64,000 bases of DNA, from sequence record OP114734.1, one strand, 5' to 3'. A model generated the notes under the pieces. That model searched no databases. It saw only the letters and a list, made by a program, of their open reading frames with translations, and had not been told where the DNA came from. The stretch's first letter is position 1. The number at the start of each line of letters is the position of its first letter. This DNA is from Escherichia phage vB_ESM-pEJ01. Below, in pieces: positions 11,552 to 11,865 of the stretch. The position numbers were made by a program, and so were the translations under genes.

Positions 11552-11598
11552 ATCAAAACCCTCGCTTAGTGGAATGTTCTGGCATTTTATTGATACAT
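11552..11598 (-). repeat. leader repeat copy 1 (second copy at 11729..11775)
   Basis: About 47 nt, ~85% identical between the two positions; copy 2 precedes only a 15-codon dead-end ORF. Confidence 0.6.
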
Positions 11599-11728
11599 TC
11601 AGCTTGGTAGTCACGAGATTTTTTTGACGAATTAAGAGCTACAGCCAAAAATCCTGTAACTGTTCGTTTGTCATTTTTGGCTTACACCGCGTATCTAAAC
11701 CCTTCGTTCTTCTAGCTTCATTAGCCAT

Positions 11729-11775
11729 ATCAAAAACCTCTCTTAGTGAAATGCTCGATCATTTTATTGATACAT
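11729..11775 (-). repeat. leader repeat copy 2 (remnant of duplicated gene start)
   Basis: Same sequence as 11552..11598 followed by ATG and stop after 15 codons. Confidence 0.6.
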
Positions 11776-11845
11776 GCAGCCTCACTATCGCCGGACACGT
11801 TCCAGCCGTATAGACCCCATCTAAAGCACATGGTAACAGTTCCAT

Positions 11846-11865
11846 TGTGACGGCTTACCGTCACA
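11846..11865. promoter_or_regulatory. perfect 8-bp inverted repeat TGTGACGG-cttA-CCGTCACA upstream of dda
   Basis: Palindrome in ORF-free 290-nt region; possible protein-binding site or RNA hairpin. Confidence 0.3.

What the first reader, a model, noticed from the sequence alone, without database searches (positions are those of the whole stretch)
11552..11865. Duplicated gene leader plus perfect palindrome in the dexA–dda spacer
The 47-nt leader and start region of ORF 11309..11551 is repeated 180 nt upstream (11729..11775, ~85% identity), where it heads only a 15-codon dead-end frame. This looks like the scar of a partial duplication or deletion. A perfect 8-bp inverted repeat TGTGACGG/CCGTCACA (11846..11865) lies between this scar and dda.
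Basis: seen in the sequence. Interest (0 to 1): 0.35.

Follow-up and report, generated by a model that had tools for sequence, protein, structure and literature searches.

The report
Repeat-flanked, frameshifted small phage gene cassette
The "duplicated leader" is the shared 3' end and ribosome-binding junction of two small neighbouring genes in an RB49/Phi1-type T4-like phage; these two repeats bracket a dispensable 58-codon gene that related phages have lost by recombination and that is broken here by a 1-base deletion. This is an ordinary, partly documented kind of phage genome plasticity.

Summary
The window is a Krischvirus (RB49/Phi1-like coliphage) with genes on the minus strand. The direct repeat is real: 11548-11603 versus 11725-11780, 48/56 identical, unique in the window, never seen in shuffles. 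It does not lie in a spacer. Each copy holds the last 17 codons, the stop codon, a Shine-Dalgarno GAGG and the next gene's ATGG (TGATATGG).

Copy 1 ends ORF010 (11730-11897). Copy 2 ends ORF009.1, the "ORFan009.1" that Arbiol et al. 2010 listed as unique to phi1. The repeats bracket this 178-bp cassette. It is present in 17 of 61 matched phage records and exactly absent from RB49, JSE and most others.

Phage PHB13 keeps copy 2 of its two-copy relative 011D4 fused to the ORF010 body. This shows deletion by recombination between the repeats.

In the window ORF009.1 is frameshifted (T6 to T5, 11647-11651), leaving 29 codons, not 15. Other lineages carry at least five other independent homopolymer frameshifts. 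The body of ORF009.1 is homologous to a small gene of N4-like phages.

The 8-bp palindrome is real but lies inside ORF010, has no T-tract, and is degraded or absent in divergent orthologs, so it is probably chance. Interest is low to moderate.

The parts
11309..11551 (-). ORF009 (80 aa, in the position of T4 dexA.1).
   Evidence: Annotated as a CDS in Phi1, RB49 and G37-3. phrog_15021, E 1e-56. pN/pS about 0.16 among alleles.
11548..11603 (-). Repeat copy 2. It holds the last 17 codons of ORF009.1 (AECINKMPEHSTKRGF), stop TGA 11553-11555, SD GAGGG 11559-11563, and ATGG of ORF009 (ATG 11549-11551).
   Evidence: An RBS is annotated at the same place in phage Makalu_003.
11553..11728 (-). ORF009.1 pseudogene or frameshift allele (176 nt; 177 nt and 58 aa when intact). 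The 5' fragment is 11639-11728 (29 codons plus TAG). The 3' part, 11553-11645, is now out of frame and is listed mechanically as a TTG ORF at 11553-11648.
   Evidence: The intact homologs are Phi1 ORF009.1, G37_3_00012 and others. phrog_37371, E 2e-42.
11647..11651 (-). Frameshift site. The run is T5 on the coding strand (A5 on +), where nine intact alleles have T6.
   Evidence: Alignments. blastn against G37-3 places the gap at 11647.
11643..11682 (.). Quasi-palindrome AGCCAAAAAT(20 nt)ATTTTTGGCT. It is perfect (10/10) only in the T5 allele.
   Evidence: I9. The fold shows the 10-bp stem in the window but not in G37-3.
11725..11780 (-). Repeat copy 1. It holds the last 17 codons of ORF010 (AACINKMIEHFTKRGF), stop TGA 11730-11732, SD GAGG 11737-11740, and ATGG of ORF009.1 (ATG 11726-11728).
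11730..11897 (-). ORF010 (55 aa), a conserved Krischvirus-specific small gene immediately downstream of dda.
   Evidence: phrog_16162, E 4e-44. pN/pS about 0.16. The AF2 model has 4 strands and a C-terminal helix at 39-53, pLDDT 78.
11846..11865 (.). Perfect 8-bp palindrome with a 4-nt loop, inside ORF010 codons D-V-T-V-S-R-H-N. No function is supported.
   Evidence: It is disrupted in L031 and absent in G2494. No terminator-like call was made here.
11908..13299 (-). dda helicase (upstream flank).
10639..11307 (-). dexA exonuclease A (downstream flank).

Best explanation
The region is a translationally coupled run of small early genes on the minus strand: dda, ORF010, ORF009.1, ORF009, dexA.

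The 56-nt direct repeat is the 3' 'tail' of ORF010 (its last 17 codons), followed by the stop/start junction TGATATGG with its GAGG ribosome-binding site. A second copy of this tail forms the 3' end of the neighbouring gene ORF009.1. The two copies therefore bracket a 178-bp one-gene cassette made of the ORF009.1 body plus one tail.

The junction is identical on both sides. Homologous recombination between the copies removes the cassette cleanly, leaving ORF010 joined to ORF009 with an intact junction. The reverse exchange could add the cassette. This produces the presence/absence polymorphism seen across Krischvirus genomes.

ORF009.1 is dispensable. It is absent from most relatives. In the lineages that keep it, it has been hit repeatedly by homopolymer frameshifts, and in this window by T6 to T5.

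Shown here: the anatomy, the polymorphism, a chimeric deletion junction, the independent frameshifts, and relaxed constraint on ORF009.1.

Inferred: ORF009.1 originated when a small gene of a family also found in N4-like coliphages was captured. Its start was superimposed on the ORF009 start and its C-terminal '...CI(N)K' on ORF010's 'CINK'. That staggered join would have duplicated the tail.
For: 1. Anatomy. The minus-strand sequence and translations show both copies encode ..[AE]CINKMxEHxTKRGF*, followed by TGATATGG. An RBS is independently annotated in both tails of Makalu_003.

2. Polymorphism. Of 58 Krischvirus records matched by DNA, the Phi1/GEC-3S/G37-3 type carries the full 701-702 bp. 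RB49, JSE and most others align in two pieces spanning 524 bp. tblastn finds full-length ORF009.1 in 17 of 61 records. The alignment shows RB49 lacks exactly the cassette, with the gap edges inside the repeat.

3. Recombination between the copies. The one-copy phage PHB13 is identical to two-copy 011D4 through the ORF010 body. It then carries 011D4's copy 2, including the diagnostic ATGCCAGAACATTCC and the A5 insertion, which frameshifts its ORF010 tail. RB49, JSE, G5211 and MIZ6 keep a pure copy-1 tail. Whisky and L012 look like mid-repeat chimeras. In Makalu_003 the copies differ at 1/56 and in L026 at 1/60, which indicates gene conversion.

4. Decay. Independent frameshifts are: window T5; P0008 T7; Makalu/P0007 A6; ECD7 A8; 011D4 A5 in the tail; L026 A3 in the tail. 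P0005 is a double shift and P0003 has lost its stop. ORF010 and ORF009 stay intact. pN/pS is 0.45 for ORF009.1 (0.93 in its tail) against 0.16 for both neighbours.

5. Origin. A profile of ORF009.1 hits a 49-aa protein (P0133, E 4e-6 in 1.84 billion proteins, aa 1-32). That protein is encoded beside N4 gp1/gp2 homologs on roughly 75-kb N4-like contigs. There is also a weaker match to a Gamaleyavirus protein. Those proteins end ...CIK*/...ISK* exactly where the ORF010-type tail begins.

6. Literature. Arbiol et al. 2010 (PMC2839356) list ORFan009.1 as phi1-specific. T4 readily recombines at short homologies to give deletions and amplifications (PMC9391042).
Against: The direction of the original event is not proven. 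Diverged Krischviruses (G2494, L031) lack the cassette. This favours insertion followed by recurrent loss, but the locus is mosaic, so no tree can be trusted.

Only PHB13 gives an unambiguous chimeric junction. The Whisky and L012 'chimeras' rest on one or two sites that are also polymorphic among copy-1 alleles.

The frameshifts all lie in homopolymers and could in part be sequencing errors. The window has a second coding homopolymer indel at about 40049.

The N4-like homology is short (about 32 aa). Translational coupling and expression were not tested. The functions of ORF010 and ORF009.1 are unknown.
Confidence: 0.8

Rival explanations
1. ORF010 and ORF009.1 are an ordinary tandem duplication. 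ORF009.1 would be a full paralog of ORF010 whose 5' two-thirds diverged while the 3' end stayed conserved through protein-level selection.
For: The genes are adjacent, have similar lengths (55 vs 58 codons) and share the C-terminal peptide. PHROG profiles cross-hit only over the tail.
Against: Similarity stops abruptly. The 56 nt are 86-98% identical, including synonymous sites, and the flanks are at background. The tail of ORF009.1 shows no protein-level constraint (pN/pS 0.93) and is poorly ordered in the AF2 model. The ORF009.1 body has its own homologs in N4-like phages and none to ORF010. The predicted folds differ: all-helical versus a beta sheet plus one helix.
Confidence: 0.07
2. The repeat is a mobile regulatory cassette of the PeSL type (early promoter plus terminator stem-loop), like those known to shuffle ORFans in RB49 and phi1.
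For: It occurs in the same phage group, it flanks an ORFan that differs between phi1 and RB49, and the recombination logic is the same (PMC2839356).
Against: The repeat contains no sigma70-like promoter or terminator-like hairpin. Its folds are not better than shuffles (z +1.2 and -0.8). There are only two copies in the genome and it is coding. Real PeSL-like repeats in this window look different (TTGACA...GGGAGTA-loop-TACTCCC...RBS, at 42673-44878). Arbiol et al. place ORFan009.1 outside the hyperplastic regions.
Confidence: 0.03
3. The frameshifted ORF009.1 in the window is still expressed. A -1 ribosomal slip on U UUU U would restore the wild-type reading frame, or the T5 call is simply a homopolymer sequencing error. 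Either way the gene would be functionally intact.
For: A -1 slip of tRNA-Phe on GAU UUU UGG would read UUG GCU..., which is exactly the wild-type protein (from the sequence). The indel is in a homopolymer. A second coding homopolymer indel exists at about 40049.
Against: There is no canonical X XXY YYZ heptamer and no significant downstream stimulatory structure. Most isolated homopolymer indels between the window and G37-3 fall in intergenic DNA, as expected for real variation filtered by selection rather than random error. Many other lineages carry different frameshifts in the same gene.
Confidence: 0.12
4. The 8-bp palindrome is a functional RNA or DNA hairpin, for example a transcript-stabilising or processing signal or a protein-binding site between dda and the small genes.
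For: The stem is perfect with 5 G-C pairs. It is invariant in the RB49/Phi1 clade, where three loop variants (TAAG, TACG, TGAG) occur. The 126-nt 5' region of the ORF010 mRNA folds better than shuffles (z -2.9). The window as a whole has more perfect hairpins than chance predicts (19 vs about 7).
Against: It lies inside a coding sequence under purifying selection. It has no T-run and gets no terminator call. In the 82%-identical ortholog L031 two stem positions are changed with no compensation. In G2494 the stem is gone. There is no Rfam match. With about 12% variable sites, 16 invariant stem positions are not unusual (probability about 0.13).
Confidence: 0.08

Closest known systems
PeSL-mediated modular shuffling in RB49/phi1 (Arbiol et al. 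2010, PMC2839356; Comeau et al. 2014, PMC4122927)
   Same: It occurs in the same phage group. A differential ORFan is bracketed by two copies of a short (50-100 bp) repeat. Recombination between the copies excises the ORF and leaves one hybrid copy, and the reverse exchange could insert it. ORFan009.1 is itself listed there as phi1-specific.
   Different: The repeat here is not a promoter/terminator cassette. It is a gene's coding 3' end plus a stop/start junction with an RBS. It has only two copies, lies outside the hyperplastic regions, and sits inside a translationally coupled gene string. The paper does not describe these repeats.
Short-homology (microhomology to about 50 bp) recombination producing deletions and amplifications in T4 (Srikant et al. 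2022, PMC9391042, and the references it cites: Kumagai 1993, Wu 1991, Mosig 1987). From my own recollection, not checked here: Singer et al. 1982 on the homology length needed for T4 recombination.
   Same: Direct repeats flank the lost segment, one copy remains afterwards, independent events use different crossover points, and the genes affected are accessory early genes.
   Different: Those are laboratory events at 2-10 bp microhomologies. Here a 56-bp natural repeat is seen as a standing polymorphism across wild isolates.
Streisinger-type homopolymer frameshifts and quasi-palindrome-templated frameshifts in T4 (classical rII and lysozyme work; own knowledge, not checked here)
   Same: All ORF009.1 lesions are +1 or -1 changes in A or T runs of 4-7 bases. 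The window's T5 allele makes a nearby 10-bp inverted repeat perfect.
   Different: Only comparative evidence is available. No mutation-rate measurement exists, and simple slippage explains the data equally well.
Small ORFan family of N4-like coliphages (P0133 next to N4 gp1/gp2 homologs; Gamaleyavirus 'nithesis' CDS0085)
   Same: The proteins share the N-terminal roughly 32-36 residues (..RRTK.L.TR.KPKMTNEQL..F..), are 49-59 aa long, and are encoded among small genes next to N4 gp1/gp2 homologs.
   Different: The Krischvirus protein carries an ORF010-derived 17-21-residue tail instead of the native ...CIK*/...ISK* end. In Gamaleyavirus the shared module is embedded in another small protein with different conserved termini. 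Function is unknown in all of them.

Membership tests
PeSL regulatory cassette | Contains a strong sigma70-like early promoter | tested here: not met
   No promoter-like site falls within either repeat copy on the coding strand. The region's promoter-like count (10) is within chance (7.9 +/- 2.8).
PeSL regulatory cassette | Contains a stable stem-loop that acts as a terminator | tested here: not met
   No terminator-like site lies in the repeats. The folds of both copies are no better than shuffles (z +1.18 and -0.81).
PeSL regulatory cassette | Many dispersed intergenic copies in the hyperplastic regions | tested here: not met
   There are exactly two copies in the window and at most two places per genome by tblastn. 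Both copies are coding.
PeSL regulatory cassette | Copies flank ORFans that differ between close relatives, and recombination between copies deletes or inserts the ORF | tested here: met
Direct-repeat (homology-mediated) deletion polymorphism | The deleted segment equals one repeat period and is bounded by direct repeats | tested here: met
   The period is 177 nt in the window and 178 nt in intact alleles. RB49, JSE and others lack exactly this unit.
Direct-repeat (homology-mediated) deletion polymorphism | Deletion derivatives carry a single hybrid or either-parent copy, with crossover points that differ between events | tested here: met
   PHB13 retains copy 2 of an 011D4-like parent. RB49, JSE and G5211 retain copy 1. 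Whisky and L012 are possible mid-repeat hybrids.
Direct-repeat (homology-mediated) deletion polymorphism | The event recurs experimentally at a measurable frequency | not testable with these tools
   This needs a passage experiment or a PCR assay across the junction.
Tandem paralogous gene pair | Homology along the whole length of both genes | tested here: not met
   BLASTP similarity is confined to the last 28 residues (16 identities, mostly in the final 17). Nucleotide identity drops to background outside the 56 nt.
Intrinsic terminator / conserved regulatory hairpin (the palindrome) | A U-run after the stem, and stem conservation with compensatory changes in orthologs | tested here: not met
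   No T-run and no terminator call. Changes in L031 are uncompensated. The stem is absent in G2494.
N4-like-phage small ORFan family (P0133-like) | Statistically significant sequence similarity to family members | tested here: met
   hmmsearch E 4.2e-6 against 1.84 billion proteins over aa 1-32. About 80% nucleotide identity over roughly 60 nt. The match covers only the N-terminal 55% of the protein.
Programmed ribosomal frameshift site | A canonical slippery heptamer plus a stimulatory downstream structure, conserved among relatives | tested here: not met
   Relatives have the in-frame T6 allele. There is no X XXY YYZ motif at the T5 site and no significant structure.

The most novel reading that the evidence does not exclude
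ORF009.1 could be a conditionally harmful, horizontally mobile early gene shared between N4-like and T4-like coliphages. Under this reading, Krischviruses repeatedly switch it off in two ways: reversibly by slippage in its T6 and A7 tracts, and irreversibly by excision between the duplicated tail/RBS junctions. One possible reason is that its product is sensed by a host defence system. The duplicated 'gene tail plus translational junction' would then be a general, non-PeSL socket that lets single genes be plugged into or pulled out of translationally coupled phage operons without disturbing the neighbours.
Probability: 0.1. Interest if true: 0.55.

Novelty: new member of a known kind. Interest (0 to 1): 0.27.

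Why it matters
This is a clean natural example of how T4-type phages gain and lose single accessory genes. A 56-bp repeat, made of a gene's 3' end and the ribosome-binding junction, lets recombination remove a gene without damaging expression of its neighbours. One relative (PHB13) shows the cost of this route: the recombination carried a frameshift from the decaying gene into the conserved neighbour.

It also adds a repeat of non-PeSL type to the 2010 PeSL model, for one of the phi1-specific ORFans not described there as PeSL-associated. It links a Krischvirus ORFan to a small gene family of N4-like phages.

None of this changes current understanding. It mainly helps annotation: ORF009.1 in this genome should be marked as a frameshifted pseudogene, and the interval is not a spacer.

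Tried and rejected
- Rfam scan of 11000-12200 at E <= 1 gave no match.
- The promoter/terminator consensus scan showed nothing in the repeats or at the palindrome, and counts were within chance.
- RNA folding of both repeat junctions was not significant.
- Pfam gave only sub-threshold noise for ORF009.1, ORF010 and ORF009. PHROGs gave three families of unknown function.
- AF2 models were built. A Foldseek search of the ORF010 model against the PDB found no match below E 0.4, so no function could be inferred.
- hhalign of the whole N4-like/Gamaleyavirus family profile against ORF009.1 gave low probability, because the shared module sits in that family's hypervariable middle. I first supposed that ORF009.1 was an internal fragment of the nithesis-type gene. 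I dropped that idea when P0133 showed homology running from the start codon.
- P0132, which ends 'CINK*', first looked like a native tail-less form. Its DNA shows it is another frameshift allele (A4 to A3) with the tail still present.
- Metagenome and IMG/VR pattern scans added only 2 and 3 loci.
- I tried to date the cassette against its flanks. The locus is mosaic: ORF010 has two deep allele classes that are uncoupled from the cassette alleles. No direction or age can be inferred.

Full report
**Context**

The window is from a Krischvirus, an RB49/Phi1-type T4-like coliphage. A 701-bp query around the finding matches 58 phage records at 90-99% identity, all Krischvirus; the best is vB_EcoM_G37-3 at 98.6%. 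All genes here are on the minus strand. In order of transcription they are:
- dda (13299-11908)
- ORF010 (11897-11730, 55 aa)
- the remains of ORF009.1 (11728-11553)
- ORF009 (11551-11309, 80 aa)
- dexA (11307-10639)

The "dexA-dda spacer" is therefore fully coding.

**Checking the observation**

The direct repeat is real: 11548-11603 versus 11725-11780, 56 nt, 48/56 identical, 177 nt apart. It is the only pair of that quality within 1 kb in the 64-kb window, and none occurs in 20 Markov shuffles. Its 24-nt 3' half has just these two matches, with none in 100 shuffles. Identity drops to background immediately outside the repeat.

The 8-bp perfect palindrome at 11846-11865 is also real.

The frame that follows the upstream copy is 29 codons, not 15. 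The interval is not a spacer. The palindrome lies inside ORF010.

**What the repeat is**

Read on the coding strand, each copy contains four things:
- the last 17 codons of a small gene (..AACINKMIEHFTKRGF in ORF010; ..AECINKMPEHSTKRGF in ORF009.1)
- the stop codon
- a GAGG Shine-Dalgarno sequence
- the ATGG of the next gene, in the arrangement TGATATGG

The upstream copy is the genuine tail of ORF010 and at the same time the translation-initiation region of ORF009.1. The annotators of Makalu_003 independently placed ribosome-binding sites in both tails.

**The cassette and its polymorphism**

Phi1, G37-3, GEC-3S, kvi and PTE-Eco09 have an intact 177-nt ORF (ORF009.1, 58 aa) between the copies. 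RB49, JSE and most other Krischviruses lack exactly this 178-bp unit, and there ORF010 abuts ORF009. tblastn finds full-length ORF009.1 in 17 of 61 matched records. Arbiol et al. 2010 already listed ORFan009.1 among the seven phi1-specific genes and placed it outside the hyperplastic regions. They do not mention the flanking repeats (PMC2839356).

**Evidence that the repeats recombine**

The single-copy junctions are not all the same.
- PHB13 is identical to the two-copy phage 011D4 through the ORF010 body. It then continues with 011D4's copy 2, including the copy-2-specific ATGCCAGAACATTCC and 011D4's private A4-to-A5 insertion. This is a deletion with the crossover in the first few bases of the repeat. 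It carried a frameshift into ORF010, which now ends ..CINKNARTFH*.
- RB49, JSE, G5211 and MIZ6 keep a pure copy-1 tail.
- Whisky shares the rare AAGAGAGG variant with the window's copy 1 but ends like copy 2. L012 and L015 have a copy-2-like base in mid-repeat. Both patterns fit other crossover points, but each rests on only one or two sites.

Within two-copy genomes the copies range from 8/56 differences (window) to 1/56 (Makalu_003) and 1/60 (L026). That range indicates gene conversion.

Recombination at short homologies that produces deletions and amplifications is well documented in T4 (PMC9391042).

**The state of the gene in this window and elsewhere**

The window has T5 (plus-strand A5, 11647-11651) where all intact alleles have T6. 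This splits ORF009.1 into a 29-codon 5' piece and an out-of-frame 3' piece.

Other lineages carry different homopolymer lesions:

| Lesion | Where seen |
|---|---|
| T6 to T7 | P0008 |
| A7 to A6 | Makalu phages, P0007 |
| A7 to A8 | ECD7 |
| A4 to A5, in the tail | 011D4 |
| A4 to A3, in the tail | L026 / P0132 |
| double shift | P0005 |
| lost stop codon | P0003 |

ORF010 and ORF009 are intact in every genome examined except PHB13. A rough Nei-Gojobori estimate gives pN/pS of about 0.16 for both neighbours. ORF009.1 gives 0.45, and 0.93 in its tail. ORF009.1 is therefore dispensable and decaying in many lineages.

The window's T5 could be a sequencing error. Against that, most isolated homopolymer indels between the window and G37-3 fall in intergenic DNA. 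In favour of it, there is one other coding case, near 40049.

The T5 allele also makes a nearby inverted repeat perfect: AGCCAAAAAT...ATTTTTGGCT (I9). A quasi-palindrome-templated deletion is therefore as plausible as simple slippage.

**Origin (inferred)**

ORF009.1 and ORF010 are similar only in the tail, and their predicted folds differ. ORF009.1 is three helices with a disordered end. ORF010 is four strands plus a C-terminal helix formed by the tail.

A profile of ORF009.1 finds a 49-aa protein, P0133, at E 4e-6 among 1.84 billion proteins. P0133 is encoded next to N4 gp1 and gp2 homologs on N4-like contigs. Roughly 80% nucleotide identity extends over about 60 nt. A related module occurs inside a small Gamaleyavirus protein.

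These proteins end ...ISK* or ...CIK* exactly where the ORF010-type tail begins in ORF009.1. At the DNA level, the Gamaleyavirus gene end CCATGTATCAAATAA lines up with the tail start GAATGTATCAATAAAATG.

The simplest reading is a capture event. A small foreign gene was joined at its ATG to the ORF009 start of one genome copy, and at its CI(N)K codons to the ORF010 tail of another copy. That staggered join would have duplicated the 56-nt interval between the two join points.

Diverged Krischviruses lack the cassette: G2494 and L031. This favours gain followed by repeated loss. The locus is too mosaic to date.

**The palindrome**

The palindrome encodes D-V-T-V-S-R-H-N of ORF010. It has no T-run, no terminator call and no Rfam match. 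Its stem is invariant in the close clade, which has three loop variants. In the 82%-identical ortholog L031 two stem positions are changed without compensation, and the stem is absent in G2494. About seven such hairpins are expected by chance in the window. I treat it as chance, or at most a clade-specific feature without evidence of function.

**Comparison with known systems and verdict**

The mechanism is that of PeSL-mediated shuffling and of T4 short-homology deletion. The repeat itself fails every structural criterion of a PeSL: it has no promoter and no terminator stem-loop, there are only two copies, and it is coding. Genuine PeSL-like repeats elsewhere in the window look quite different.

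The finding is a new example of a known kind of phage genome plasticity. The polymorphic gene itself was already recorded in the literature. Function remains unknown for all three small genes. Interest is low to moderate.

Noticed in passing
window 39626-40173 (minus strand), indel near 40049: A second homopolymer indel (A7 to A6 relative to G37-3) splits the homolog of G37_3_00057 (179 aa, next to nrdD). The pieces are the ORFs 39626-40036 and 39979-40173. This is either another pseudogene or a sign of homopolymer sequencing error in this assembly.
   Followed up: partly
window 42673-42721, 43891-43968, 44801-44878, 48767-48795, 51225-51253: These are PeSL-like repeats. On the minus strand each reads TTGACA..., then a perfect stem GGGAGTA-loop-TACTCCC, then GAGGATTATATTATG. 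They match the promoter/stem-loop/RBS cassettes that Arbiol et al. 2010 described for RB49 and phi1.
   Followed up: no
window 36765-38354: A family of four direct repeats of about 69 nt, spaced 290-530 nt apart, plus a 30-nt pair at 36765/37053. They look like the conserved 5' ends (ATGAAATGGGAAGTTGGTAAAAC...) of tandem paralogous small genes on the minus strand.
   Followed up: no
window 11643-11682: The window's T5 frameshift allele makes a quasi-palindrome perfect: AGCCAAAAAT(20 nt)ATTTTTGGCT, 10/10. Intact T6 alleles have a bulge here. This fits a hairpin-templated -1 mutation, the kind of event I recall as classically described in T4.
   Followed up: partly
L021 (phage PHB13) 617-772, compared with L006 (011D4): The repeat-mediated deletion in PHB13 carried the A5 frameshift from the decaying ORF009.1 tail into the otherwise conserved ORF010. 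ORF010 is truncated to ..CINKNARTFH* as a result.
   Followed up: yes
L011 1453-1632 and alignment A3 (N4-like / Gamaleyavirus small proteins): This family of 42-74-aa proteins has invariant ends (MRKSLIMGTKEDV... and ...IVTFNHPCIK) and a hypervariable middle. Only some members carry the MTNEQLQEFIDAGLKQSK module shared with ORF009.1, and they carry it at different positions (P0036, P0037). That suggests shuffling of a sub-gene module.
   Followed up: partly
window 14996-15498, compared with L032 (G37-3) 10219-11623: G37-3 carries an HNH endonuclease gene (10275-11204) in a segment that does not align with the window. The window has about 0.5 kb of different sequence there. This is a homing-endonuclease presence/absence difference.
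   Followed up: no
window 11730-11897 and relatives: ORF010 exists as two deep allele classes that differ at 10-13 of 112 nt. These classes are uncoupled from the ORF009.1 and ORF009 alleles, so recombination breakpoints lie within a few hundred bases.
   Followed up: partly
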